Shown: in pieces, positions 24,882 through 58,260 of the stretch
Position numbering within the stretch: the first letter of the stretch is position 1
Layout: every line of letters starts with the position of its first letter
Origin: Escherichia phage LF82-41
Reading direction: 5' to 3' (one strand)
Sequence record: PV660463
DNA: 64,000 nucleotides
Position numbers and translations under genes: made by a program
Notes under the pieces: model-generated
What the model saw: the letters and a program-made list of their open reading frames with translations, nothing else
Databases searched by the model: none
Told to the model about the DNA's origin: nothing

Positions 24882-25186
24882 TATAATGTTCTCTCAAAAT
24901 TGTGGAAGCATTTACGGCATTTCAATTTCAAGTTATCAGTGGTCCAGTTAACCAGTTGGACTTGGATAGTTCCACATTCCGGACATGGGTGTTTTGCTGC
25001 CGATTTGGCAGCATTTTCACGTCGTTCAACCATTTTCATGATTTCGTTCCATGCCGGAGGAACGAACTCTTCTTCATCGTAGATATTATCTCGCTGAACA
25101 AATTCAATCTTTGAACTATCATCAATAAACTTAACTAAGCCATGATTAGTGCTCATATCAATATCCTCTAGAAGACGTAGTTTCAT
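24881..25186 (-). CDS. zinc-ribbon protein (CPECG...CRKC)
   Basis: 101 aa ORF; C-terminal four-Cys motif; exact start uncertain. Confidence 0.5.
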   Translation of the reverse strand: MKLRLLEDIDMSTNHGLVKFIDDSSKIEFVQRDNIYDEEEFVPPAWNEIMKMVERRENAAKSAAKHPCPECGTIQVQLVNWTTDNLKLKCRKCFHNFERTL

Positions 25187-26136
25187 TATAAAACCTCAAT
25201 GGCATTTCGTAAACCGTCCGCTTTCGCATTCAGAGCTTTTAACGATTTAGTTTGTTCTGCAATCTGGGCTTCGACTTCTTTCAGACGAGATTTGAGGTAC
25301 TCGCGTTCTTCAGCCATGATATCAACCTTTTCTGCTTTAGGTTCTTTAATAGTCTTAAGTTTATACTCGTTAGGGTTCTTCAGCTTAATTCGGGTGCGAG
25401 AACTGTATAACATTGAACCGTTATCTTCGGATTCGTCGAACGTTTCAACAACATCCATAGTCTCTAACAATGTAATAAGTTTATAAGACAATGAACGAAC
25501 GGTTTTGTTATGCTTATTAATTTCTTCAGCTTTCATGGTACCGAGATTACGTGAGTAGTAATAAGGAACCTGGATATCAATTGATAATGATGCGTTACCA
25601 TTACCAGTCGGTTTGAATACTGCAGTAACCCAATCTTTAACATGAACTTTATTTGTACGACCATCACCGCCCGTGAATAATTTACGAGAATGTTTAAAAA
25701 GCATATTCACTTGGTTATTGAATTCACAAGCAAATTTATCAGCAAATTTAGTTTCAGGAATGGTAGATAACCAATCAGCCAAATGAGTCTTTTTAACATC
25801 ATTAACAATAGTGAATTCAACCAAATCAGTTTTAGATGTCACAGATTTAATAAAGCTAGGCTTCATAAAGTTTTTAATGTTATCGCGAGCTACAGTAGAA
25901 GATAATAAACGAGAACGTTTGAACCATTGAAGCAGTGTCCCTAATGAATGAGAATACGCATTCTGAGTATCTTTACAAATATGATTTTCTTGGCCTGTGT
26001 ATGTACCAAAATCGCGAAGAATACCACTTACTACATCTCGGTGTGGAACATCAAATCCTAGTGCACCAACAGCGCGCTGGGCATGAACGTTAGCGATAAG
26101 ACCGGCAAAGTATTCAATGTAATGTGAACGTGTCAT
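25186..26136 (-). CDS. hypothetical protein with C-terminal coiled coil (316 aa)
   Basis: ORF preceded by repeated promoter cassette; no recognisable catalytic motif. Confidence 0.7.
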   Translation of the reverse strand: MTRSHYIEYFAGLIANVHAQRAVGALGFDVPHRDVVSGILRDFGTYTGQENHICKDTQNAYSHSLGTLLQWFKRSRLLSSTVARDNIKNFMKPSFIKSVTSKTDLVEFTIVNDVKKTHLADWLSTIPETKFADKFACEFNNQVNMLFKHSRKLFTGGDGRTNKVHVKDWVTAVFKPTGNGNASLSIDIQVPYYYSRNLGTMKAEEINKHNKTVRSLSYKLITLLETMDVVETFDESEDNGSMLYSSRTRIKLKNPNEYKLKTIKEPKAEKVDIMAEEREYLKSRLKEVEAQIAEQTKSLKALNAKADGLRNAIEVL

Positions 26137-26162
26137 AATATTTTCCTCTCGTTAAGATAGAT

Positions 26163-26195
26163 TCATTATACTCCAACCATCCTTGGTTGTAAACT
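26163..26195 (-). promoter_or_regulatory. early promoter cassette (TTTACA-17-TATAAT) with palindromic spacer; core repeated at 27182..27214
   Basis: minus strand cagTTTACAaccaaggatggttggagTATAATgaa; 27-nt core identical to next copy. Confidence 0.6.
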
Positions 26196-26198
26196 GAT

Positions 26199-27158
26199 TT
26201 ATGATTTTAATGCATTCATTGCGTTAAAAAGTTTAGAGTACTGCAACTGGAGATTCGTTACAACACTTTGAGCATCACGAAGCTTAGCTTGTGCTTTGTC
26301 AAGTTCAACGGACAGTTGGTCTACAGTAGCCTTGATTTGATTGTAATGGTAATCTTCGACCGGAAGAAGGTCATTAGAAACATTTAGTTTTACTGCAGAC
26401 AGTTTGCACACATTTGGCAAACCTTTAAACATTGATTTTCCCGAAGTAGAATATGAACCTAGAACTTCAGCATTACCAATCGGGGTTGCAGTAATTGACG
26501 CTTCAAATGTTGCATTTTCCTTTTTAAGATTTTGATAGTATTCAGAGTCTTTGTGCCACCACGGCGCAGGAACCTTTTTACCAATAGATACACGAGCCTG
26601 GATAGCGATATGGCCCTTATTCTTGATAGGGTAGATAATATTAAGCTCACGAGAATAAATTGCTTTAATCTGGTGGATATTATCACCTAAAACTTCCAAC
26701 GCTTGGTGGAATACACGAGCAACGTTATCATTCTTAGGTTTATACGTAAGAGTGAACTCGTTCTCACTGATAACCATGATTTCTAACTTATCGTAAGTAT
26801 ATTTCAAATGTTTCATGTTAATTGCTTGAGGACGAATACGAGAAGCAATGGCCATCAGATTGTTAAGGTTATTCCGGAACTGCTTAGCGAAATATTGACC
26901 TTCACCGCCAATACAAAAATTACGAAGTTTCTGTTTGGCCAATAAACGGCTGAACTCACCATTTTTAATGAACTCTTTAACGGGTGTGTTAGTAACGCAT
27001 TCAAATTGGGTAAACATACGAGAAGTAATCCCATAATATGAACAGATTTCCTCAATCTCTTCAGGAGTCTTTACAGGCATACGGATAGGATTAGGTCCTG
27101 GAGTGTATGCGTTCGAGGTAAATTCTTTGATAAGTTCTCTACGTGTAATAAAAGCCAT
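26199..27158 (-). CDS. hypothetical protein with C-terminal coiled coil (319 aa)
   Basis: ORF; same size and architecture as neighbours. Confidence 0.7.
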   Translation of the reverse strand: MAFITRRELIKEFTSNAYTPGPNPIRMPVKTPEEIEEICSYYGITSRMFTQFECVTNTPVKEFIKNGEFSRLLAKQKLRNFCIGGEGQYFAKQFRNNLNNLMAIASRIRPQAINMKHLKYTYDKLEIMVISENEFTLTYKPKNDNVARVFHQALEVLGDNIHQIKAIYSRELNIIYPIKNKGHIAIQARVSIGKKVPAPWWHKDSEYYQNLKKENATFEASITATPIGNAEVLGSYSTSGKSMFKGLPNVCKLSAVKLNVSNDLLPVEDYHYNQIKATVDQLSVELDKAQAKLRDAQSVVTNLQLQYSKLFNAMNALKS

Positions 27159-27181
27159 TTTATATTCCTCATGTTGAAAAA

Positions 27182-27214
27182 TTTATTATACTCCAACCAT
27201 CCTTGGTTGTACAT
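27182..27214 (-). promoter_or_regulatory. early promoter cassette (TGTACA-17-TATAAT), repeat of 26163..26195
   Basis: attatactccaaccatccttggttgta core identical. Confidence 0.6.
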
Positions 27215-28209
27215 CATTCCTTAAGAAGTTTTACTACTTGAATAAGATTAGCTCGTTCTGTTTTATTTTTACCGTTTAAGCCTGCTAATCGTGAGATTTC
27301 ATCGTCAGTCTGTTGAATAGTTACATTAAGTTCGTTAATCAAAGCTTCAAAGTATTTGATTTGCTCAGCATGTTTTGATTCAAATTTCTGAACAGGAATA
27401 ACATCTTGGTTCAGTTCATCAATAAGGTCTTTAAGAGCATCTTCTTGGTTGATATCATATTCAACTTCTTTTATTTCTTCAAAGAGCTCGTCTTTATATC
27501 TAACGTCTTTTAGTCCTGGAGCTGGTCCTGAAATCTCTTCTTTAAGAGTACAAACATACCCAATACGGTATCCAATGCAGTCTCGCTTGATATCAACTTC
27601 GTCGATAAATCCACAATGTTTAAGACCAGAGCCGATTATGTCAAAATATCCTTGACGTCGTCCTTCAAACGTTACACGAACTACTAAGACAGTTTTACCA
27701 CCAACCTTTTGAAGCTCACATTTATAAAAGTCTGTTGAACCTGAATAACGTGGATGAGTTTTAAAGTTCATCTGACGATCTAGGCCCATTTGTAAACGTG
27801 CTGTTACGGCCATAAAACGTGTTTGGTTCTCGTTAAGATGAGCAACAATCCATTTCAAAGGCATTTTACACTGTTCACGACCGAACAAATCAGTACGTCC
27901 TAGATTACGCAGGATGTTGTTAGAGTTAATCATCGACAGAACGTTAAGTTTATTCAGCGCGCTGAAGATTCCGTCAGCCATTGATTTCCCATAACCTTTA
28001 CACGCTTTAATAAGTGCTCGCGGCAGATTAGTATAGATTTCAGACGGCATATGAAAATCAAATTTACTAGTCAGTAATTGATGAACTTGGATAGCAATTT
28101 GCTCATAATTAAGTGCTCTGCGATCGTTATGGTCTTTAAACCACACTTTAATCTGTGAAGCACATAAACCGTTAATTTCATGTTTTACCGCATCAGATGT
28201 AATGCTCAT
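27214..28209 (-). CDS. hypothetical protein with C-terminal coiled coil (331 aa)
   Basis: ORF. Confidence 0.7.
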   Translation of the reverse strand: MSITSDAVKHEINGLCASQIKVWFKDHNDRRALNYEQIAIQVHQLLTSKFDFHMPSEIYTNLPRALIKACKGYGKSMADGIFSALNKLNVLSMINSNNILRNLGRTDLFGREQCKMPLKWIVAHLNENQTRFMAVTARLQMGLDRQMNFKTHPRYSGSTDFYKCELQKVGGKTVLVVRVTFEGRRQGYFDIIGSGLKHCGFIDEVDIKRDCIGYRIGYVCTLKEEISGPAPGLKDVRYKDELFEEIKEVEYDINQEDALKDLIDELNQDVIPVQKFESKHAEQIKYFEALINELNVTIQQTDDEISRLAGLNGKNKTERANLIQVVKLLKE

Positions 28210-29283: not shown

Positions 29284-30285
29284 TTATTTCAGTAAAGTAA
29301 CTTCCGAGATTTCTTCCCAACCATCTTTATCAGTTGAAATAAAATCTGCTACATAAAGAGCCGTACGTAATGATACATTGCGAAGACGAGATACGTTAGC
29401 CTTCATCCAGGACAATGCTTTGTACGTTTCAGCATCAGTCAAGCCACGTTTCTGCATCATGTCAGTAGATAATATTACATCTTCAACTCGAACCATAATC
29501 TCTTCATTAGAGTGTACTCCAAGGTCGAGATACACTGAACGAGATACTAAAGCTTGAAGGTGCGGAGCAAGTTTCGAACCGCGTTCTAACTCTTTATCAA
29601 TATCAACGTTTGTAATGAAAACGATAGTACCTTCAAACTCAAATTCTTTATCGATACCCTTATCATCAAGATAAGATGACGCAGTGCTCCAACAAACTTT
29701 GCGTTTATCGCCGGTATCTAATGCGGCTTTAAGAAGGTTCAGGATGTCCATATCTGAGAATACGTCAACGTCATCGATTAAGAGAACGCTGTCTGCATCA
29801 CGGTTGAGCCAAAGTTGTTCGTAAAGGCCAATACCAGAGATTTTACCATTAATGCTTTTGTATTTGATGAAACCATTATCATTAGCATTACTAAGTGCTT
29901 TATCCAGAGAATACGTCTTACCAATACCAGCTGCACCTGAAATAATGAGTGAACGAATTTTGCCATCGATAATGCCATTCGTCATCATGTTCATTACTTT
30001 AAAGCGTTTGTTGATACGAGTTTTCATATCTTCAGTGCTTTCAACAACTGCAACTGGTGATGTCTCAACTCCTTCCATTACGATGTCTGATTTGAAGACC
30101 CATACTCCACGTTCAGAACCATCAATCATAACGAAAATTTTACCGTCACCTAAGTGGGAACATTCAGGATTAAGCTTTGCCGGGAACCATGTCTTTGTGG
30201 CAACATAAGAACCAGAGATTTCGTTATTACGATAAATACCTTTTTTGATTTGAACGTTGAACATTTTATTCTCCAATTTACTCAT
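29284..30285 (-). CDS. P-loop ATPase (AAA-like)
   Basis: 333 aa; Walker A GAAGIGKT, Walker B VLLIDDVD. Confidence 0.75.
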   Translation of the reverse strand: MSKLENKMFNVQIKKGIYRNNEISGSYVATKTWFPAKLNPECSHLGDGKIFVMIDGSERGVWVFKSDIVMEGVETSPVAVVESTEDMKTRINKRFKVMNMMTNGIIDGKIRSLIISGAAGIGKTYSLDKALSNANDNGFIKYKSINGKISGIGLYEQLWLNRDADSVLLIDDVDVFSDMDILNLLKAALDTGDKRKVCWSTASSYLDDKGIDKEFEFEGTIVFITNVDIDKELERGSKLAPHLQALVSRSVYLDLGVHSNEEIMVRVEDVILSTDMMQKRGLTDAETYKALSWMKANVSRLRNVSLRTALYVADFISTDKDGWEEISEVTLLK

Positions 30286-30288
30286 TTC

Positions 30289-30333
30289 GTTTCGATAGGT
30301 CTATAGTATCATATCCTAAAAGCATGTACACTA
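30289..30333 (-). promoter_or_regulatory. early-promoter/stem-loop cassette (PeSL-like)
   Basis: ttcgataggtctatagtatca...tgtacac; minus-strand TGTACA -35. Confidence 0.5.
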
Positions 30334-30362
30334 CTTTTTAAAAATATTTTAACCCCCTAAAG

Positions 30363-30378
30363 GGACCCGAAGGTCCCC
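30363..30378 (-). terminator. stable UUCG-tetraloop hairpin at 3' end of gene 30383..30649
   Basis: gggacCCGAAGgtccc; related hairpins at 8295 and 48150. Confidence 0.45.
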
Positions 30379-30382
30379 ACAT

Positions 30383-30649
30383 TTACTTATCGCACTTAGC
30401 AACATAATTAGGCATATCACAGAATACGGAGCGTGTAACTACTCGACCCTTTGACCATGCTTCAGTTGCTTGTCCTGCCGTGCTATTAATATAGCTTGAT
30501 TTAATGTTCTCAATACCCTGAGAATGTGATGCATTTACCGAACCATTTGAAGGCCCGGAAGACTGGCTACCACCAGCTCCTGCACCCGTGGTAGCACCAA
30601 CAGAGAACGCCATCATTACTGCGAATAAACCAATTACTAATTTTTTCAT
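30383..30649 (-). CDS. small secreted protein (signal peptide, Gly/Ser-rich, 2 Cys)
   Basis: 88 aa; MKKLVIGLFAVMMAFSVGA signal-like N-terminus. Confidence 0.6.
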   Translation of the reverse strand: MKKLVIGLFAVMMAFSVGATTGAGAGGSQSSGPSNGSVNASHSQGIENIKSSYINSTAGQATEAWSKGRVVTRSVFCDMPNYVAKCDK

Positions 30650-30680
30650 ATTTACCTCAAGTGAATGGTTATTTATCTAT

Positions 30681-31670
30681 TTATTTATAGTAAGAATTAT
30701 GATTTTCGAGATAGACTTGCTCAAGGAAATCATCCCAGAAACTCATATCTACTTTTTGTTGCATACCGTTCTTAGCGGCTTGTTCTGATGCTTGTTCAAC
30801 TTGGTCAACGATATCTTCTAGGAATTCTTGTACAGTTTTAAATGTATGTTTACCAAGCTTGACATCGAGAATAAATGGAGCATCCTGAAGCGGGTAAACC
30901 AGGTCGCCAGTTTTGTAAATTTCCAATAATTGAAGTCCACCACGACATGCATGACTCAATGCTTTCCAGTCAATACCTTCGTTAGCTTCTGCCTTACGAG
31001 CACGTTCACCATAGTTCTCTTCCAGTTTAACCAGGATGGCATTGAACTCTTTATTGGTTAACGTATCTTGGAATTTACGGTCCAACAGATTATAGAATGT
31101 TTGCTTACCTGTTTTCTCGTTTTCGGTTTCAACCCATGAAGCAAATTCACCTACAGGCAGAACATTCTTCATATGTGATAAACGAATTACTGCACCATTA
31201 TCAAAGTATTGTCCCCATTCATTAGAACGTTTAAGGGCTTGACGAAGAACAGCCAGTCGAGAACCCTTGACACCGTATTTAGAAGCTTGCTTACGGACAT
31301 ACCCTAAATAAGATTTCATGTTAGTGGTATAGAAACGAGACCTATTATCTTGAATATATTTCCATACATCAGGCAAATCAGATTTAACTACTAGACTTTG
31401 TGGAGTGTGAAGCATATCTAATGCGACGGTTTCACCATCCGCAGCTAGTTTAAAGAAATATTTGAGACTATACAACTCATGGTCTACGTCGTCTTTTGTG
31501 TTCTTAGAAGATGTGTTATTCGTGTTCTTGCTCATGTGTTCTTTAACGTTACCGGTCAAGATATCACGAGCATGAGGGACATAAATTTCTTTAAAATCGA
31601 CGTCAGATTCAGGAGTAGACGTTCCATAAAGGTGGCTACCAAAGTAGCTTTTCATAATTGTTTTCATCAT
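30681..31670 (-). CDS. nucleotidyltransferase-fold protein (Pol-beta-like NTase signature)
   Basis: 329 aa; GSHLYGTSTPESDVDF fits [GS]-x(9-13)-D-x-[DE] minimal NTase motif. Confidence 0.7.
   Translation of the reverse strand: MMKTIMKSYFGSHLYGTSTPESDVDFKEIYVPHARDILTGNVKEHMSKNTNNTSSKNTKDDVDHELYSLKYFFKLAADGETVALDMLHTPQSLVVKSDLPDVWKYIQDNRSRFYTTNMKSYLGYVRKQASKYGVKGSRLAVLRQALKRSNEWGQYFDNGAVIRLSHMKNVLPVGEFASWVETENEKTGKQTFYNLLDRKFQDTLTNKEFNAILVKLEENYGERARKAEANEGIDWKALSHACRGGLQLLEIYKTGDLVYPLQDAPFILDVKLGKHTFKTVQEFLEDIVDQVEQASEQAAKNGMQQKVDMSFWDDFLEQVYLENHNSYYK
30682..30689 (-). promoter_or_regulatory. late promoter candidate (TATAAATA on minus strand)
   Basis: octamer 33 nt upstream of start of secreted-protein gene. 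Confidence 0.4.
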
Positions 31671-32140
31671 TTAGCCTTATATTCAAGAGTAGGACAGACT
31701 TTTTCTTTACGAGCTTTAAGGTATTCACCTATTAATGATTTCTTACGTTCAATAGGCTCAAGTCCATTTTTAATTCGTTCTTGGTTTTGCGCAATGAGCT
31801 CAATTTCTTTATAATATTTTCTGTCGTTATATTTGTCTAACAACCAAGACGGACCAATTACCAACCCGGTAGCAATAAAAGCCATGACTGCTACAATTAA
31901 AATGCCTACACCAATTGAGGCTGGAACTAATGTCCATAGACTGCTAAAAACAAAGAATTTAGTTAAAATTTCGTGGCCAAAGATTGTGACTGCTGCTAAA
32001 ATCGCAAATCCAATAATTGAAACAGCCAATACCGGGATTAACGTTTTCCAAAAATAAGCACACAACGTTTTCGGACGATTCCATGTACTATTGAACGCGG
32101 CATAAATTTTAAAGTGCCAAGAGTTTTCATTGATAATCAT
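31667..32140 (-). CDS. membrane protein (157 aa, 3-4 predicted TM)
   Basis: ORF with multiple hydrophobic segments. Confidence 0.6.
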   Translation of the reverse strand: MIINENSWHFKIYAAFNSTWNRPKTLCAYFWKTLIPVLAVSIIGFAILAAVTIFGHEILTKFFVFSSLWTLVPASIGVGILIVAVMAFIATGLVIGPSWLLDKYNDRKYYKEIELIAQNQERIKNGLEPIERKKSLIGEYLKARKEKVCPTLEYKAK

Positions 32141-32149
32141 AATAATTCC

Positions 32150-32686
32150 TTATTTCAAAGTCGGGATAACAGAATCAAGATAAGCTTTAAGAGCAACAGC
32201 TTCGTCTTTGGTAAACGTAGTAATATGTGAACGTAAATCATCAATTTGACGAATAGTTACGACATCACCATCTTCATAAGAATTCCGTACATCCAACGTC
32301 GTGGTATAGTTTAGAGCTACCGGATTAATAATAAAAGCACCACGTCCTTTACCCCATTGAAGTTTAGCCTTTTCGGGTGTTTCAGGTGTTTCAGAATTCA
32401 AGAATTCTTTAACCTTATCAACGAATGTTTTCCAATTATCAATAGAAAGACACATATCTTCAGTTTCGATATTAGCACCACGTTCCCCGCGATAAAAATG
32501 AACTTGTAGCTCGTTGCCAATACTAGTTACGCTATTAAATCCTGAAGGAGCATAAGATAAAATCTCTTCCAGTTCCATAGGAAGAATAGTAATACTATCA
32601 TCTTCTTGAGTGAAAAGATAGGTATTACCGAGTTTTTCGATAGTCAAGTCACCGAACATTTCAGTTGTTTCAATTACAGTTTTCAT
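32150..32686 (-). CDS. hypothetical protein (about 178 aa)
   Basis: ORF 32150..32698; first ATG at 32686. Confidence 0.65.
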   Translation of the reverse strand: MKTVIETTEMFGDLTIEKLGNTYLFTQEDDSITILPMELEEILSYAPSGFNSVTSIGNELQVHFYRGERGANIETEDMCLSIDNWKTFVDKVKEFLNSETPETPEKAKLQWGKGRGAFIINPVALNYTTTLDVRNSYEDGDVVTIRQIDDLRSHITTFTKDEAVALKAYLDSVIPTLK

Positions 32687-32990
32687 ATTATTCACCAATT
32701 AAAGTTTCAACAAAATTCACCAAATCGTTCTGACGAGCATCAACTTGCTTTTCATAGAAGTCTCCGCTATCATTTACTGCGTGATAAGCTACATCATTTA
32801 AATCAGTATCGGCTTCACGTAAGTCACGGATAAGGTCCATCAATTTATTAGCTTGTTCACGGGTCATTTTACCATACTCGTTTCAATAAGATTCACTATG
32901 CCGTTTACCATGTTATAAGTAAACATCGGATAATTGTATTGTACTACAACATAAGCGATAAGCAAAAGTTTCATTTTGTTCTCCGTTTGT

Positions 32991-49536: not shown

Positions 49537-49613
<77 letters not shown>

Positions 49614-49616
49614 AAT

Positions 49617-49691
49617 TGGTGACCCTGGCTGGTTTCGATCCAGCTACCTATCAGTTATGAGCTGACAGCTCTCCCATTGAGCTACAGGGCC
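49617..49691 (-). tRNA. tRNA-Met or tRNA-Ile2 (anticodon CAT), CCA encoded
   Basis: Manual cloverleaf: acceptor ggccctg/cagggtc, D-stem gctc/gagc, anticodon loop ctCATaa, T-arm gctgg-atcgaaa-ccagc. Confidence 0.8.
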
Positions 49692-53410: not shown

Positions 53411-54001
53411 TTAACGCAAGGAAGGGTGTCTAGAAATGGATTTAGATTCGGCTGCTTGACGAGGCTGTTGAGATACAATGACTTCACCGTCTTTTTCTAT
53501 CGTCATATACGCGTAGTGAATAGTTGCTACGCACGTAACGGCAGGATCAGAATCTTCAGTGTAACTAAATTCAATTTCGCTCAAATCAGAAATCCATGGT
53601 TTATAGAAATTCGCAGTCAAAACTACTTCGGTCTTATTGTTGTTTAAAATGTGCAAAGTAACAAACTCAGGACCATCGGCATGTGCCGTATTATGTCCGG
53701 TTATATAGTTATTAGTGCTGAGCATCCATTTATACATGTTCATCCAGGACGTCATGTCTTCATCAACTATAAATCGTACAATAAAAGGGTCATATTCAAA
53801 TGTGGTGCCTGCACGCATTGCACGACCTAGCCCCATTGTGCCTGTCACAGTTTCAACAACAGGAATTCTCACACCTGGCAGTGGAGCCGTTTGGGCATTG
53901 AGCACAAAACCTGAAGTTCGTGTACTATCCGGGATATCCACAACAAAGTTTGTTATATTTGTTTGGTTAAAAATCTGTCTCGTTGGACGAGTCATAAGCA
54001 C
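53411..54001 (-). CDS. 3: tail completion / sheath stabiliser protein (by synteny)
   Basis: 196 aa ORF between genes 1 and 2. Confidence 0.65.
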   Translation of the reverse strand: MLMTRPTRQIFNQTNITNFVVDIPDSTRTSGFVLNAQTAPLPGVRIPVVETVTGTMGLGRAMRAGTTFEYDPFIVRFIVDEDMTSWMNMYKWMLSTNNYITGHNTAHADGPEFVTLHILNNNKTEVVLTANFYKPWISDLSEIEFSYTEDSDPAVTCVATIHYAYMTIEKDGEVIVSQQPRQAAESKSISRHPSLR

Positions 54002-54097
54002 CTCAAAAACGCTTTAATAAAAATGCAGTATAATGGTTTTAGGTCTCTTCCATTAATCTGGTTCAACAGAATATCAGAAGAACGGAAGAGAATAGAA

Positions 54098-54919
54098 TTA
54101 AGATTTCCAAACAGTATTCGCAGAGAAACGTTTTCCTTTTGACATAAACTGCTGAGTAGGTAACATGATTATGTTAGCCCAGTCTTTAGGAGCGATTTCT
54201 GTTATTGTTCCTCTAATGTGGCCTGGCAGGTATGCTTTAATCATTTTGTCAGCACCTTGAAATCCTTTCACCTTGCTCCAGTCTATCTTCAACTTTGTGT
54301 TATTAGTAATAGTAGTTGTGCTAGCATATTGCTTCAGCAATTCTTCAAGAAACTGTTGTCGTGCTTTAGGTGGGATATAGTGCAAGTTTAACCCGTACAT
54401 CAAATTATGTTTACCTAATCCTAAATAAATAATCAAAGGATATCGGTCCCAGTATGGCAGAGTATCTTTATGTTTAGCATCATACACGTAAGTATAAATT
54501 TTGCCTGGCGTAGGCTTGACTACTTTATGACCTTTTACACTTTTCTTAATTGTTTCAACAAACCACTTAGATGATTTGTTGTTTACTGCTGCACCTTCAT
54601 TTCTAATCTTTTCTCGTATTGAACTGCGAAACGAGTTTATCATCAGAAGTTGACGTTCTTGCTTATTGAGTTTATTTTTAGGTTTAGATTCAAGCGTTTC
54701 AATTTTCTGTGCAGTCTTAATAGATGATGCATATCTAGACATTGCAGATGTAAACGACGAGTATTTTATTCCTTTTGATTCTGCAAATGCTTTTGCAGTG
54801 ATTCCTTTCTCTTTAGCTTTCTTGTATTCTAATCCTATCTCAATCCATTTTCTTTCATTCATAGACTGGGCAATCTTAGGGGCTTGTACGCCTTCAGATA
54901 TAATTTGGAATATGCTCAT
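54098..54919 (-). CDS. 2: DNA end-protector protein
   Basis: 273 aa basic protein; synteny with genes 3 and 4. Confidence 0.8.
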
Positions 54920-54921
54920 AA

Positions 54922-55371
54922 TTACCCCTTGTATCCGAGTTTTCTAAGACCATCTTCGGTTAGAACTCGAAATTTTATATTTCTCTTTTCAGCAACAGCT
55001 GAGGCAGCTTTCCATTTGTCACAGTTCACAGACCATGTGTAGATTTCATTCATATAACGTTTCTTAGCCGCAGTTGTAAGATTCACCGGTTTAATAGGTG
55101 GCTGAGTTTCTTTCTTTGGTTTTATTTCTACAAAGAACTCTTGACCTGATGCATCTTTCATCCATATGTCCATATAGTATCGACGTTTCTTACCTTCAGC
55201 ATTACAAAAATATGGAATTACTGCTGTTTCACTACCCCATGCAATAATTTCTGGATTTTTATCCAACCATTCGAAAAAGAATTTTTCCCAGTTTGAACGA
55301 TACGTTATTTTGGTATGGTCTCCACGGTATTTTTTTAAATTTTTTGGGACCCATTTACCAGAGTAGGCCAT
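54922..55371 (-). CDS. 4: head completion protein
   Basis: [70 protein letters not shown] matches T4 gp4; AGGAGG RBS before ATG 55371. Confidence 0.9.
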
Positions 55372-55382
55372 GTTGTCCTCCT

Positions 55383-55390
55383 TATAAATA
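55383..55390 (+). promoter_or_regulatory. late promoter (TATAAATA) for gene 53
   Basis: exact octamer 43 nt upstream of gene 53 ATG. Confidence 0.55.
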
Positions 55391-55397
55391 GTATTAT

Positions 55398-55405
55398 TAT
55401 TTATA
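55398..55405 (-). promoter_or_regulatory. late promoter (TATAAATA on minus strand) for gene 4
   Basis: exact octamer on minus strand; divergent partner of 55383..55390. Confidence 0.5.
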
Positions 55406-55432
55406 CCAATTTCATATTGGAAGGAGACTATT

Positions 55433-56008
55433 TTGTTATTTACATTCTTCGACCCAATAGGATATAGTGCTAAAACAGTTGATAAGAATGCACCTACTAT
55501 TCCTATGACAGACATATTTCGTAACTATAAAGAGTACTTTAAGCGTGTGGCTGCCAATTATAGATTACGTTCTTATTACATTAAAGGCTCTCCACGTCCT
55601 GAAGAACTAGCAAACATAATTTATGGCAACCCTCAATTATACTGGGTCCTTTTGATGTGTAATGATAACTATGACCCATATTATGGTTGGATTACATCTC
55701 AGGAAGCAGCGTATCAAGCGTCTATTCAGAAATATGCAAATGCTGGTGGAGACCAAATTCTTTACCATATTAACGAGAACCGTGAGAAATTTTACAATTT
55801 AGTTTCATATCCAGACGAGCCTTTAGTGTGGTACGACAAAGGTGACGAAGCTCGTAAGTATCCGCAATATAAAGGGCCTTTAGCTGCAGTAGATACTTAT
55901 GAAGCGGCAGTATTAGATAATGAAAAACTTCGTAAAATAAAAATTGTTGCAAAAGAAGATATAAACTCGTTTATTACTGATTTGATTCGTGAGATGGAGA
56001 TTGCATAA
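55433..56008 (+). CDS. 53: baseplate wedge protein
   Basis: 191 aa; immediately precedes gene 5. Confidence 0.85.
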   Translation: MLFTFFDPIGYSAKTVDKNAPTIPMTDIFRNYKEYFKRVAANYRLRSYYIKGSPRPEELANIIYGNPQLYWVLLMCNDNYDPYYGWITSQEAAYQASIQKYANAGGDQILYHINENREKFYNLVSYPDEPLVWYDKGDEARKYPQYKGPLAAVDTYEAAVLDNEKLRKIKIVAKEDINSFITDLIREMEIA

Positions 56009-57741
56009 TGGAAATGATTAGCAGTAGCCTTAATTGGTTCGTGGGTGTTGTCGAGGACAGAATGGACCCATTAAAACAAGGGCGAGTTCGAGTTCGAGTC
56101 GTTGGTCTTCATCCAGCACAGAGAGCACAAGGTGATGTACAAGGTATTCCTACAGAAAAACTTCCATGGATGACTGTTATTCAACCTATTACGTCTGCGT
56201 CAATGTCAGGTATTGGTGGTTCTGTTACAGGTCCTGTTGAAGGAACTCGAGTATATGGTCATTTCTTAGACAAATGGAAAACAAACGGGATTGTACTTGG
56301 TACATACGGTGGAATCGTACGTGAAAAGCCTAATAGACTTGAAGGTTTTTCAGACCCGACAGGCCAGTATCCGCGACGTTTAGGTAATGATACGAACGTA
56401 TTAAACCAAGGTGGTGAAGCTGGTTATTATTCGAACTCTAACGTAATTCAAGATAACAACTTGGATTATGGTATAAACCCAGACGATACAGATTTAGCAA
56501 ATATTCCAGAAGATGATGACCCTAATTTTACAATAACAGAAATGTTGCGACGTGACGAAGGTCTTCGTGATAAAGTGTATTGGGACCATCTCGGGTATCC
56601 TACAGTAGGTATTGGACACCTTATCGTAATGGAAAAGACCCGAGATATGTCTCGAATTAATAAATTGTTATCTGATCAAGTAGGGCGTGAAGTAACAGGA
56701 AATCCGGGAACTATTACATTAGAAGAAGCAACAGCGTTATTTGAGAAGGACCTTGCTAAGATGCAGAAAGATATTCGTTCTAATTCTAAAGTAGGTCCTG
56801 TTTATGCTAAAATGAACAGGTCTCGTCAAATGGCATTAGAAAACATGTGCTTCCAAATGGGCGTTGGTGGTGTAGCAAAATTCAATACTATGCTTAAAGC
56901 AATGGCCGAAGGTGATTGGAAAACTGCATACAAATCTGGGCGCGATTCATTATGGTTCCAACAGACTAAAGGACGTGCTTCACGCGTAACAACAATTATT
57001 TTAACTGGTAACATGGAATCGTATGGTGTTCCTGTTAAAACACCACCTTCACCAGGAGTTGGTGCCGATTTAGTTACTAGAAATACCGATTCAGAAGACC
57101 CGGCTGGTCCTCCTGTTCCATTAGATTCACGCATCCTTTTTAAAGAACCGGAATCAAGTTATCGTGGTGAGTATCCATATGTTCATGCTATGGAAACAGA
57201 AAGTGGTCATATCCAAGAATTTGATGACACTCCAGGTAATGAACGTTATCGCTTAGTTCATCCAACAGGGTCATATGAGGAAGTTTCTCCATCCGGTCGT
57301 CGTACTCGTAAAACTGTAGAAGACCTTTTTGACATCACTAATGGTGATGGGAACTTCTTGATTTCTGGTGATAAACTTGTTAACGTTGGTGCTAATGAAA
57401 TATATTATAACATGGCAGACCGCCTCCATCAAATAGACGGTAATGACACAATCTTTATTCGTGGTAACCAATCTAAAACTGTTGAAGGTGACGGAACTCT
57501 TTACGTTAAGGGCAATATCAAAATAGTTGTTGACGGAAATGCAGATATTCTTGTTAAAGGTGATGCTAAAACTCAGGTTGAAGGGAATCACGATTACACC
57601 GTCAACGGAAACGTTAAATGGACTGTTAATGGTAATGTTGATATGACTGTTGCCGGGGATTGGGCAGAAACAATGTCCACAATGAGCTCAGTAGCTTCAG
57701 GACAATACACTGTTGACGGATCTCGTATTGATATTGGGTAA
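56008..57741 (+). CDS. 5: baseplate hub / cell-puncturing protein with lysozyme domain
   Basis: 577 aa; OB-fold N-terminus, lysozyme block DEGLRDKVYWDHLGYPTVGIGHL, C-terminal beta-helix VxGxxxxx repeats. Confidence 0.95.
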   Translation: MEMISSSLNWFVGVVEDRMDPLKQGRVRVRVVGLHPAQRAQGDVQGIPTEKLPWMTVIQPITSASMSGIGGSVTGPVEGTRVYGHFLDKWKTNGIVLGTYGGIVREKPNRLEGFSDPTGQYPRRLGNDTNVLNQGGEAGYYSNSNVIQDNNLDYGINPDDTDLANIPEDDDPNFTITEMLRRDEGLRDKVYWDHLGYPTVGIGHLIVMEKTRDMSRINKLLSDQVGREVTGNPGTITLEEATALFEKDLAKMQKDIRSNSKVGPVYAKMNRSRQMALENMCFQMGVGGVAKFNTMLKAMAEGDWKTAYKSGRDSLWFQQTKGRASRVTTIILTGNMESYGVPVKTPPSPGVGADLVTRNTDSEDPAGPPVPLDSRILFKEPESSYRGEYPYVHAMETESGHIQEFDDTPGNERYRLVHPTGSYEEVSPSGRRTRKTVEDLFDITNGDGNFLISGDKLVNVGANEIYYNMADRLHQIDGNDTIFIRGNQSKTVEGDGTLYVKGNIKIVVDGNADILVKGDAKTQVEGNHDYTVNGNVKWTVNGNVDMTVAGDWAETMSTMSSVASGQYTVDGSRIDIG

Positions 57742-57744
57742 TAT

Positions 57745-58260
57745 ATGGCACAAATACTTCCTTTAAATACCGACTTAGGAGAAGACATGGAAGGGGCGTC
57801 TATTGACGTCCTTTTTACTCCACAGTTAGAAACGTCCGAAACTTTAGTGTCAATAAATATAATAGATTATGAACCAACACAAGGCATTACGGTAGATGGT
57901 AATCGTTTATATGGGACATATGAAAGTGTGTTTAGCTTTTCTTCAGATGCATTGAAATATCGATTAAATGATGATTTTAAAACTGCATCTTCATGGGATG
58001 ATTTACCAAAAGATGAGTCCACACAGTTATATTTGTGGAGAGCTCCTCAGAATCTTCGTAAAGTGTTTAGTTATACGGTTGAAATGATTTATAACTACCA
58101 AGAAGAAAGTTCATCAGGCGGTTCTAGAAGTGACTCTGGTACAGAACCTCCACCAGCTCCAGTACAAAAAACTCTTACTAAGGTTTATACAAAAACTATA
58201 GTAGGAAATTGGAGCAAATGGGCTCATCAATTACGAAACTATGTTTATGTGAGGCCGTGA
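57745..58260 (+). CDS. 5.1: hypothetical protein 5.1-like
   Basis: 171 aa ORF between genes 5 and 5.4. Confidence 0.7.

What the first reader, a model, noticed from the sequence alone, without database searches (positions are those of the whole stretch)
29284..31670. AAA-like ATPase and a minimal nucleotidyltransferase-fold protein in the accessory region
29284..30285 has clear Walker A/B motifs; 30681..31670 carries GS-x10-DVD, the Pol-beta-like NTase signature shared by cyclic-oligonucleotide synthases, OAS-like enzymes and antitoxin-type NTases. Phage NTases are candidates for manipulating or mimicking host immune nucleotide signalling.
Basis: partly seen in the sequence, partly recalled or inferred. 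Interest (0 to 1): 0.5.

Follow-up and report, generated by a model that had tools for sequence, protein, structure and literature searches.

The report
T4 nrdC.10 and nrdC.11 orthologues
The two genes are the already catalogued T4-type genes nrdC.10 (an AAA+ ATPase of unknown role) and nrdC.11 (an RlaP-family enzyme that most likely adds a nucleotide or two to broken RNA ends during tRNA repair); nothing links them to immune nucleotide signalling or to each other.

Summary
Both ORFs are real minus-strand genes carrying the stated motifs: Walker A GAAGIGKT and Walker B VLLIDD in one, GS-x10-DVD in the other.

The window is a Mosigvirus, an RB69-group T4-like coliphage. The ORFs are orthologues of T4 nrdC.10 (77% identity) and nrdC.11 (78%). 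Both were predicted to be an AAA ATPase and a nucleotidyltransferase in 2006.

[quoted passage not shown] Pseudomonas members of that family were shown in 2025 to add one or two NMPs to RNA 3'-OH ends in tRNA repair. It has no sequence or fold match to CD-NTase, SMODS, OAS or cGAS. Bacterial members of its own subfamily sit beside RtcB, Pnkp/Hen1, Ro60 or a second RlaP in 24 of 48 well-flanked loci. The closest complete phage genome encodes Rnl1, Pnk and Rnl2 elsewhere.

The ATPase has a complete AAA+ core plus an N-terminal beta domain, with no clade-specific relative. It is not a conserved partner of the NTase: adjacency holds in 37 of 74 NTase-seeded viral loci and 4 of 32 ATPase-seeded ones. 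In divergent T4-like contigs it lies among uvsX, gp32 and uvsW.

Verdict: ordinary, already known genes. The immune-signalling idea is unsupported.

The parts
29284..30264 (-). Orthologue of T4 nrdC.10: AAA+ ATPase, 326 aa from the likely start. The first in-frame ATG at 30285 would give 333 aa.
   Evidence: 77% identical to T4 NrdC.10. PHROG 1250, E 2e-161. RefSeq relative annotated as 981 nt. SD GGAG lies before the second ATG.
30073..30264 (-). N-terminal beta-rich domain of the ATPase (residues 1-64 of the 326-aa form), followed by a low-confidence linker.
   Evidence: AF2 secondary structure shows five strands, E2-11 through E61-64, with pLDDT 81-88. The linker at 66-73 has pLDDT below 50. 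Jumbo-phage relatives lack this part: tblastn matches begin at query residues 80-90.
29287..30036 (-). AAA+ module (residues 77-326): alpha/beta core plus helical lid.
29914..29937 (-). Walker A motif, GAAGIGKT.
   Evidence: invariant in alignment A2.
29770..29787 (-). Walker B motif, VLLIDD.
   Evidence: D164/D165 (326-aa numbering) invariant.
30383..30649 (-). Intervening 88-aa ORF with a signal-peptide-like N-terminus. It is not part of either enzyme. T4 has no ORF here, only a 115-bp gap.
   Evidence: PHROG 2243, E 2e-38; T4 map. TATAAATA lies upstream at 30682-30689 and a GC hairpin downstream at about 30351-30378.
30681..31670 (-). Orthologue of T4 nrdC.11: long-form RlaP-family Pol-beta nucleotidyltransferase, 329 aa.
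   Evidence: 78% identical to T4 NrdC.11. Pfam PF10127 RlaP, 49 bits against a cut-off of 23. PHROG 388, E 4e-126. 100% identical proteins are already deposited.
31272..31670 (-). NTase core (residues 1-133).
   Evidence: HHalign to canonical RlaP covers residues 4-132 at probability 95%. The Pfam match covers 4-138. AF2 pLDDT is 92-98 over residues 1-120 and 88 for 121-130.
31596..31640 (-). GS-x10-DVD motif (G11, S12 ... D23, V24, D25).
   Evidence: invariant in 94 relatives; aligns with the GS and DxD of canonical RlaP.
31482..31484 (-). D63, the probable third catalytic carboxylate.
   Evidence: Invariant. Lies at the start of strand E62-68. Aligns with the conserved D of canonical RlaP.
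30684..31271 (-). Subfamily-specific C-terminal domain (residues 134-329): helices plus a three-stranded beta insert at 177-201.
   Evidence: AF2 model. This region does not align with canonical RlaP in HHalign.
30942..30971 (-). DWKALSHACR motif (residues 234-243) with invariant K236 and R243. These are candidate RNA or NTP phosphate contacts (inference).
   Evidence: This was the signature peptide that retrieved 156 bacterial and archaeal relatives.

Best explanation
These are two separate, already catalogued accessory genes of T4-like phages.

The NTase (nrdC.11 orthologue) is a long-form member of the RlaP family. It most likely uses three aspartates (D23, D25, D63) and divalent metal to add one or two untemplated nucleotides to the 3'-OH of broken RNA. 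In the phage it would act between end-healing by polynucleotide kinase/phosphatase and sealing by RNA ligase 1 or 2. That would let tRNAs that have lost a nucleotide to a nucleotide-excising anticodon nuclease (RloC type) be restored, not just rejoined one base short.

The ATPase (nrdC.10 orthologue) is an independent, probably oligomeric AAA+ motor with an N-terminal beta domain. Its substrate is unknown. Its gene neighbourhood in distant T4-like phages points to DNA replication or recombination, not to the NTase.

Shown here: family membership, fold, conserved catalytic residues, RNA-repair gene context of bacterial subfamily members, and lack of conserved linkage between the two genes.

Inferred: the RNA 3'-tailing activity of this protein (by homology to the Pseudomonas enzymes), the order of steps with Pnk and Rnl, the RloC-type target, and the role of the ATPase.
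For: Identity: the window is a Mosigvirus. The proteins are 77% and 78% identical to T4 NrdC.10 and NrdC.11.

Family: PF10127 RlaP above the gathering score, and 93 of 94 diverse relatives also match it. HHalign to canonical RlaP gives probability 95% with GS, DxD and the third D in register. The AF2 model has pLDDT 94, and its best solved matches are Pol-beta NTases.

Biochemistry of the family: P. fluorescens and P. aeruginosa RlaP add 1-2 NMP to RNA 3'-OH, prefer cleaved-tRNA mimics, do not use DNA or protein, and improve aminoacylation of a tRNA missing one anticodon-loop nucleotide. T4 NrdC.11 is placed in cluster 5 of that family (PMC12776372).

Context: of 48 bacterial loci of the NrdC.11 subfamily with at least 3 kb on both sides, 24 carry an RNA-repair gene within the locus: canonical RlaP 18, RtcB 8, Pnkp 7, Hen1 7, Ro60 2. 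Identities were confirmed by Pfam.

Partners: the closest complete genome encodes Rnl1, Pnk and Rnl2. These are 5'-phosphate ligases, which need the 3'-OH end that RlaP leaves (PMC12776372).

Target: RloC excises the wobble nucleotide, and whether phage repair can reverse that lesion was left open (PMC2610378).

Independence of the ATPase: NrdC.10 lies within 10 kb in 37 of 74 NrdC.11-seeded viral loci, in 4 of 32 of the reverse set, and in 0 of 80 bacterial loci. Its recurrent neighbours in divergent contigs are UvsW (51 loci), RecA/UvsX (25) and gp32 (10).
Against: No experiment exists on NrdC.11 itself or on any phage RlaP.

Only the N-terminal 130 residues align with the characterised type. 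The C-terminal half, which should bind the substrate, is different, so substrate and product could differ.

In phages the gene is usually not next to RNA ligase or Pnk: 4 of 79 loci have one within 10 kb.

nrdC.11 is deletable in T4 under laboratory conditions (PMC9825161). That fits a conditional anti-defence role but gives no positive evidence for one.

Untemplated addition restores the correct base only in a fraction of molecules (PMC12776372).

For the ATPase, the replication/recombination idea rests on gene neighbourhood alone, and no AAA+ clade could be assigned.
Confidence: 0.55

Rival explanations
1. One reading: the NTase makes, mimics or depletes immune signalling nucleotides. It would act as a CD-NTase or OAS-like synthase or decoy, for instance producing oligodeoxyadenylate to keep a Hailong-type channel closed.
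For: It has the Pol-beta NTase fold and an intact triad. The Hailong NTase HalB is among the better structural matches, with probability 0.99 over about 150 columns. HalB makes oligo-dA that holds the effector off (PMC13434031).
Against: No HMM match to SMODS, Mab-21 or OAS in the protein or in 94 relatives. No PADLOC hit at E<=1. No cGAS, DncV or OAS chain in the top 50 Foldseek hits, and the HalB match has TM only 0.25-0.36, confined to the shared core. Family members tested use RNA 3'-OH as acceptor. Bacterial subfamily members sit in RNA-repair operons, not defence operons.
Confidence: 0.05
2. MntA-like antitoxin-type NTase: the enzyme AMPylates and neutralises a protein, for example a host HEPN RNase toxin.
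For: There is a weak match of the GS...DxD segment to the NCBIfam MntA model (E 0.064, 13 bits against a cut-off of 60). The MNT-HEPN complex 7ae9 appears at rank 36 in Foldseek.
Against: The match covers an 18-residue motif only. The protein is 329 aa with a large extra domain, whereas the MNT chain in 7ae9 is 147 residues. No HEPN partner is detected among the neighbours. RlaP enzymes did not label E. coli proteins.
Confidence: 0.06
3. The ATPase and the NTase form one two-component system, with the AAA+ motor delivering or remodelling the NTase substrate.
For: In Tevenvirinae the ATPase gene lies downstream of the NTase gene on the same strand in 36 of the 37 NTase-seeded loci that contain both, at distances of 7-2272 nt.
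Against: The pairing is missing in half of the NTase loci, in 28 of 32 well-flanked ATPase loci and in all 80 bacterial loci. Record counts by host genus differ: Klebsiella 286 against 149, Vibrio 59 against 121. The junction is variable and here holds an unrelated ORF followed by a hairpin. Elsewhere it holds endonuclease genes.
Confidence: 0.08
4. The NTase tails RNA for a purpose other than anticodon-loop repair. Examples would be mending tRNA 3' CCA ends, marking host or phage transcripts for decay or stabilisation, or blocking 3' exonucleases.
For: Pseudomonas RlaP also labelled rRNA-sized and full-length tRNA species and single-stranded RNAs, with little NTP specificity. The phage gene is unlinked to the ligase genes. 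The subfamily-specific C-terminal domain could confer a different RNA preference.
Against: Bacterial subfamily members are embedded with ligases and end-healing or modifying enzymes (RtcB, Pnkp, Hen1), which points to break repair. The tested enzymes preferred the broken anticodon-loop end over the acceptor end.
Confidence: 0.2

Closest known systems
T4 NrdC.11 (NP_049709), with deposited Mosigvirus orthologues
   Same: 78% identity over the full length, same motifs, same map position between the mobD.1/rI/tk block and nrdC.10. Proteins 100% identical to the window product are already in public databases.
   Different: In T4 the homing endonuclease gene mobD lies upstream. Here a 157-aa membrane-protein gene overlaps the start codon. 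T4 has no ORF between nrdC.11 and nrdC.10.
Characterised RlaP enzymes of Pseudomonas fluorescens and P. aeruginosa (PF10127; PMC12776372)
   Same: Same Pfam family. The NTase core is homologous, with GS, DxD and the third Asp in register. The overall plan is an N-terminal NTase domain plus a C-terminal helical domain. Cellular relatives show RNA-repair gene context.
   Different: A different cluster of the family: cluster 5 against 1a. It is about 70 residues longer than the short canonical RlaPs found next to it in bacteria, which are about 255-270 aa. The C-terminal half does not align and carries a beta insert and the DWKAxSHAxR motif. Activity is untested.
Kanamycin nucleotidyltransferase ANT(4') and related two-domain NTases (1kny, 3c18)
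   Same: These are the best solved structural matches: an NTase domain followed by a helical domain.
   Different: Weak match: E 2e-3, TM 0.33-0.40, 8-10% identity. There is no evidence for small-molecule substrates.
T4 NrdC.10 (NP_049708)
   Same: 77% identity, with identical Walker A and Walker B segments. An AAA match was reported in 2006 (PMC1524935).
   Different: None of note. The function is unknown in T4 as well.
Generic AAA+ ATPases (MoxR-type NorQ/CbbQ, sigma54 activators, RFC clamp-loader subunits, Hda/DnaA, Cdc6/Orc, MCM)
   Same: alpha/beta core plus lid. Walker A and B are present, and the asparagine and arginines at the sensor 1, arginine-finger and sensor 2 positions are conserved.

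Membership tests
[quoted passage not shown] | Match to the family HMM above the curated gathering score | tested here: met
   49 bits against a cut-off of 23, E 8e-13. 93 of 94 diverse relatives also match.
[quoted passage not shown] | Pol-beta NTase core with GS, DxD and a third conserved aspartate | tested here: met
   G11, S12, D23, D25 and D63 are invariant. They are in register with canonical RlaP. The AF2 model has pLDDT 94, and the NTase fold was recovered by Foldseek.
[quoted passage not shown] | C-terminal helical domain homologous to that of the crystallised enzyme, forming the substrate cleft | tested here: inconclusive
   A helical C-terminal domain is predicted. However, HHalign and Pfam align only residues 4-138. 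No PfRlaP chain was found in the PDB copies searched.
[quoted passage not shown] | Gene neighbourhood with RNA ligase or RNA-repair genes | tested here: inconclusive
   Not met in this window: no Rnl1, Rnl2 or Pnk. In the closest genome they lie far away, and they are rare in phage loci, 4 of 79. Met for bacterial members of the same subfamily, 24 of 48 loci.
[quoted passage not shown] | Adds one or two NMP to RNA 3'-OH | not testable with these tools
   Shown only for the two Pseudomonas enzymes (PMC12776372).
CD-NTase / SMODS / cGAS-OAS signalling synthases | Sequence-profile match to the family models | tested here: not met
   No such Pfam family at E<=0.1 for the protein or at E<=0.01 for 94 relatives. 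No PADLOC model at E<=1.
CD-NTase / SMODS / cGAS-OAS signalling synthases | Fold similarity to cGAS, DncV, CdnE or OAS | tested here: not met
   None appears among the top 50 Foldseek PDB matches.
MNT/MntA antitoxin-type minimal NTases | Small single-domain protein with an adjacent HEPN toxin gene | tested here: not met
   329 aa with two domains. MntA model 13 bits against a cut-off of 60. The neighbours have no HEPN match.
AAA+ ATPases (for the nrdC.10 orthologue) | alpha/beta P-loop core plus helical lid, with Walker A, Walker B, sensor 1, arginine finger and sensor 2 | tested here: met
Clamp-loader / initiator clade of AAA+ (RFC, DnaA/Hda, Cdc6/Orc) | Specific sequence or structural affinity to that clade over other AAA+ clades | tested here: inconclusive

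The most novel reading that the evidence does not exclude
The NTase is not a repair enzyme but a phage counter-defence synthase. Its subfamily-specific C-terminal domain would redirect the RlaP core to make a nucleotide or oligonucleotide product, for instance oligodeoxyadenylate that keeps a Hailong-type DNA-gated channel shut, or a decoy for another nucleotide-sensing defence. A milder and more likely version of novelty is that it supplies a third, nucleotide-restoring step of T4-type tRNA repair that defeats wobble-excising anticodon nucleases such as RloC. I put that version at roughly 0.35-0.4 and include it under the best explanation.
Probability: 0.05. Interest if true: 0.75.

Novelty: already known. 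Interest (0 to 1): 0.2.

Why it matters
As a finding it is ordinary. Both genes have been named and given these fold predictions since the T4 comparative genomics of 2006. The NTase family was named RlaP before 2019 (cited as recently described in PMC7824862) and given a biochemical activity in 2025, with T4 NrdC.11 explicitly placed in it.

What remains open is biological: no phage RlaP has been tested. If the T4-type enzyme restores nucleotides removed by RloC-like tRNases, it would answer a question posed in 2008, namely whether wobble-nucleotide excision defeats phage tRNA repair. It would also add a third enzyme to the classic Pnk/Rnl1 pathway.

Two by-products of this check may help anyone following up. 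First, in bacteria the long NrdC.11-type RlaP is commonly paired in tandem with a short canonical RlaP inside RtcB or Pnkp/Hen1 operons. Second, the nrdC.10 ATPase travels with uvsX, gp32 and uvsW in distant T4-like phages, which suggests where to look for its function.

Tried and rejected
- Sequence searches of the PDB, with single proteins and with profiles, gave nothing significant for either protein. The PfRlaP crystal structure was not retrievable.
- The original RlaP description (Burroughs and Aravind 2016) is not held in the paper library, so I relied on later papers that cite it.
- AF2 model coordinates are not exposed, so distances within the acidic triad could not be measured.
- The weak HTH_37 hit in the ATPase C-terminus (E 0.0016, below cut-off) falls in the AAA+ lid helices of the model. 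I rejected it as a DNA-binding call.
- MadB, SspF and STAND hits for the ATPase are P-loop-only matches far below cut-off.
- The sigma-70 promoter scan found fewer sites than shuffled sequence (10 against 13.2).
- The late-promoter consensus TATAAATA is not enriched in the window (7 against 7.3 expected). The hairpin after the 88-aa ORF is not exceptional in stability (z -1.1). Statements about transcription units therefore stay tentative.
- My first neighbour count in bacterial loci missed overlapping downstream RlaP genes. It was redone: 18 rose to 24 of 48.
- The 'thioredoxin' labels on many database relatives are annotation errors carried over from the gene names nrdC.x. They are not evidence of function.
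Full report
**What is there**

Listing ORFs between 26 and 35 kb shows a long run of minus-strand genes. It includes 29284..30285 (333 aa) and 30681..31670 (329 aa), separated by an 88-aa ORF at 30383..30649.

A regular-expression check confirms the stated motifs:
- Walker A GAAGIGKT at residues 117-124 of the first product.
- Walker B VLLIDD at residues 167-172 of the first product.
- G11-S12, ten residues, then D23-V24-D25 in the second product.

Such short patterns are weak evidence alone. Six of 109 long stop-free stretches in the window have a Walker A pattern, and three have GS-x(9-13)-DxD/E. What makes them real is conservation and fold, described below.

The ATPase probably starts at the second ATG, giving 326 aa and coordinates 29284..30264. 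That ATG has a GGAG 7-8 nt upstream. RefSeq relatives annotate 981 nt, and homologues align from residue 8.

**Where the window comes from**

The 3.2-kb region is 98.3% identical to Escherichia coli O157 typing phage 3, genus Mosigvirus, Tevenvirinae. It matches 756 phage records.

Comparison with the T4 reference map and proteins shows the two ORFs are orthologues of T4 nrdC.10 (77% identity) and nrdC.11 (78% identity). The surrounding genes correspond to nrdC.3-nrdC.9 on one side and mobD.1, rI and tk on the other. Proteins 100% identical to the window NTase are already deposited.

A 2006 comparative paper already reported nrdC.10 as matching the AAA ATPase motif and nrdC.11 as matching the COG3541 nucleotidyltransferase domain (PMC1524935). 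Many database relatives are labelled 'thioredoxin'. This error is carried over from the gene names.

**The nucleotidyltransferase**

Family assignment:
- It matches Pfam PF10127, RlaP ('RNA repair pathway DNA polymerase beta family'), at 49 bits against a gathering score of 23.
- It matches the PHROG 388 nucleotidyltransferase family at E 4e-126.
- A full HMMER scan of 1.84 billion representatives found 3287 relatives.

In an alignment of 94 relatives of 34-52% identity to the window protein, the invariant residues are G11, S12, S22, D23, D25, D63, Y132, K236, R243 and G273. Ninety-three of the 94 match RlaP, and none matches SMODS, Mab-21 or OAS models.

The AlphaFold2 model built on that alignment is confident (mean pLDDT 94, pTM 0.83). 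It shows an N-terminal alpha/beta NTase core followed by a large helical domain with a three-stranded insert.

Foldseek against the PDB finds only distant matches:
- Kanamycin NTase at E 2e-3, TM 0.33-0.40.
- An uncharacterised NTase-like protein, 3c18.
- The Hailong NTase HalB.
- Lincosamide and aminoglycoside NTases.
- The MNT antitoxin.
- No cGAS, DncV, CD-NTase or OAS chain in the top 50.

PADLOC defence-system models give nothing at E<=1. The MntA model scores 13 bits against a cut-off of 60.

A profile-profile comparison with twelve short canonical RlaPs gives 95% probability over residues 4-132. The GS, the DxD and D63 are in register with the conserved residues of the canonical enzymes. 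The C-terminal half does not align. The protein is therefore a long, divergent subfamily of RlaP, not a minimal NTase.

**What RlaP enzymes do**

A December 2025 preprint purified RlaP from two Pseudomonas species (PMC12776372). It reported the following:
- Among E. coli macromolecules, only RNA is labelled.
- One or two NMPs are added to RNA 3'-OH ends. Ends carrying 3'-phosphate, and DNA, are not substrates.
- The broken anticodon-loop end of a cleaved-tRNA mimic is preferred.
- Mn2+ works best.
- Treatment with the enzyme before ligation partly restores aminoacylation of a tRNA lacking one anticodon-loop nucleotide.
- The crystal structure is an N-terminal NTase domain plus a C-terminal helical domain forming a cleft.
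- T4 NrdC.11 falls in cluster 5 of the family, whereas the enzymes studied are in cluster 1a. NrdC.11 itself was not assayed.
- The proposed role is an antidote to 'smart' ribotoxins such as RloC that remove nucleotides as well as cutting.

A 2021 review of jumbo phages makes the same prediction for phage RlaPs (PMC7824862). The RloC paper of 2008 left open whether wobble-nucleotide excision defeats phage tRNA repair (PMC2610378).

**Independent context evidence gathered here**

Using the subfamily signature DWKAxSHAxR, a scan of one genome per prokaryotic species found 156 relatives of 33-52% identity. Many lie on megabase-size chromosomal contigs of Desulfobacterales, Nitrospirota, Alphaproteobacteria and others.

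I clustered their neighbours and named the clusters with Pfam. This identified RtcB, Pnkp (kinase-phosphatase-ligase), Hen1, a Ro60/TROVE protein and a short canonical RlaP (E 3e-51, full-length match).

After correcting a first count that had missed overlapping downstream genes, 24 of 48 loci with at least 3 kb on each side carry at least one of these. The breakdown is canonical RlaP 18, RtcB 8, Pnkp 7, Hen1 7 and Ro60 2. The canonical RlaP is typically immediately downstream on the same strand. So the NrdC.11-type subfamily is RNA-repair-associated in cells, often as one half of a long-plus-short RlaP tandem.

In phages the association is looser:
- The window has no RNA ligase or Pnk gene.
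- The closest complete genome encodes Rnl1 (gp63 type), polynucleotide kinase and Rnl2, all far from this locus.
- Only 4 of 79 viral NrdC.11 loci have Rnl1, Rnl2 or Pnk within 10 kb.

The phage ligases are 5'-phosphate ligases that need a 3'-OH, which is what RlaP leaves. T4 nrdC.11 can be deleted without loss of viability in the laboratory (PMC9825161). That is what one expects of a conditional counter-defence gene, but it is not positive evidence for one.

**The ATPase**

Sequence hits are weak and generic:
- AAA_22, AAA_16 and AAA_14 below cut-off.
- PHROG clamp loader at E 2e-4.
- Cdc6 at E 0.09 with a profile.

PHROG 1250, its own family, has no assigned function.

The AlphaFold2 model (pLDDT 89.5) shows a five-stranded N-terminal domain (residues 1-64), a disordered linker, and a complete AAA+ module from residue 77.

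Invariant residues are K116/T117, D164/D165, N219, R242 (in an S-R-S triplet) and R295/R300. They fit Walker A, Walker B, sensor 1, arginine finger and sensor 2, so an active, oligomerising ATPase is likely. That assignment is inference from position. From my own knowledge, the DD Walker B and the L-x-S-R motif recall DnaA, Hda and DnaC-type proteins. The structure searches do not single out that clade, so I leave clade membership open.

**Are the two genes a unit?**

They are not conserved as one.
- Starting from NrdC.11, 37 of 74 well-flanked viral loci have NrdC.10 within 10 kb. In 36 of the 37 it is downstream on the same strand, 7-2272 nt away. This is synteny of enterobacterial and related Tevenvirinae.
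- Starting from NrdC.10, only 4 of 32 well-flanked loci contain NrdC.11, and three of those are close Tevenvirinae.
- None of 80 bacterial NrdC.11-type loci has an NrdC.10 relative.
- Counts by host genus differ: Klebsiella 286 against 149 records, Vibrio 59 against 121.

In divergent environmental T4-like contigs, the recurrent same-strand neighbours of NrdC.10 are a UvsW-type helicase (51 loci), a RecA/UvsX protein (25 loci) and gp32 (10 loci).

The junction between the two genes is variable. T4 has a 115-bp gap, and some relatives have endonuclease genes there. This window has an 88-aa signal-peptide ORF, preceded by TATAAATA and followed by a GC hairpin. Neither signal is statistically exceptional, so I draw no firm conclusion about transcription units.

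**Conclusion**

The fold-level interpretation is right. The proposal of immune-nucleotide manipulation has no support, and a better-supported function exists.

The most likely mechanism for the NTase is untemplated addition of one or two nucleotides to healed RNA 3'-OH ends before ligation. This would extend the T4 Pnk/Rnl repair pathway to lesions that remove a nucleotide. My confidence levels:
- Family membership: about 0.9.
- RNA 3'-tailing activity: about 0.6.
- The specific anti-RloC role: about 0.35-0.4.

The ATPase is an independent AAA+ protein of unknown substrate. A role near replication or recombination is a lead from gene neighbourhood only.

Both genes are already known, so interest is low. 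The open experimental question is whether any phage RlaP actually counters nucleotide-excising tRNases.

Noticed in passing
window 30383..30649 (-), with 30682..30689 and about 30351..30378: An 88-aa ORF with a signal-peptide-like N-terminus and a Gly/Ser-rich stretch (PHROG 2243) sits between the nrdC.11 and nrdC.10 orthologues, where T4 has only a 115-bp gap. It is preceded by the T4 late-promoter consensus TATAAATA and followed by a GGGGACC-TTCG-GGTCCC hairpin. Neither signal is statistically exceptional.
   Followed up: partly
L170, L179, L182, L207, L232 and others among L162-L241: In bacterial chromosomes the long NrdC.11-type RlaP is very often followed immediately, on the same strand and often overlapping, by a short canonical RlaP of about 255-270 aa. 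Some of these pairs lie inside operons with RtcB, Pnkp, Hen1 and Ro60; L182 has all of them. A two-RlaP tandem is not described in the papers I read.
   Followed up: partly
L003-L082, e.g. L082 7967..15292: In divergent environmental T4-like contigs, the nrdC.10-type AAA+ gene lies between uvsX/gp32-like genes upstream and a UvsW-type helicase about 1 kb downstream. An unassigned protein of about 350 aa lies directly next to it in 24 loci.
   Followed up: partly
window 31667..32140 (-): A 157-aa predicted membrane protein (PHROG 944). Its stop overlaps the NTase start (ATGA), which suggests translational coupling. A homologue lies just upstream of the NTase in 47 of 79 viral loci. T4 has the homing endonuclease mobD at that position instead.
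   Followed up: no
window 25186..28209 (-): Three consecutive ORFs of 316-331 aa each end, by eye, in a coiled-coil-like segment. They correspond to T4 nrdC.3 (56%), nrdC.5 (26%) and nrdC.6 (29%), and one is DUF7235. They are not detectably similar to each other by BLAST, and they diverge far more from T4 than nrdC.8, nrdC.10 and nrdC.11 do.
   Followed up: partly
window 49537..49691 (-): Two adjacent tRNA genes, tRNA-Arg(TCT) and tRNA-Met(CAT). They may be relevant to tRNA-targeting defences but were not examined.
   Followed up: no
window 32150..32698 (-): Orthologue of T4 mobD.1 (46% identity) matching the Pfam y05I-like putative transcription factor N- and C-terminal domains (E 5e-33 and 2e-16).
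   Followed up: no
public records matched: Many GenBank and UniRef entries label the nrdC.10 and nrdC.11 orthologues 'thioredoxin'. The label appears to be propagated from the gene names nrdC.x. Others call nrdC.10 a 'processivity clamp loader' or 'RarA'.
   Followed up: no
window about 54000..58000: GC skew changes sign from negative to positive near 56 kb. This may reflect a switch in the coding strand. Not examined.
   Followed up: no
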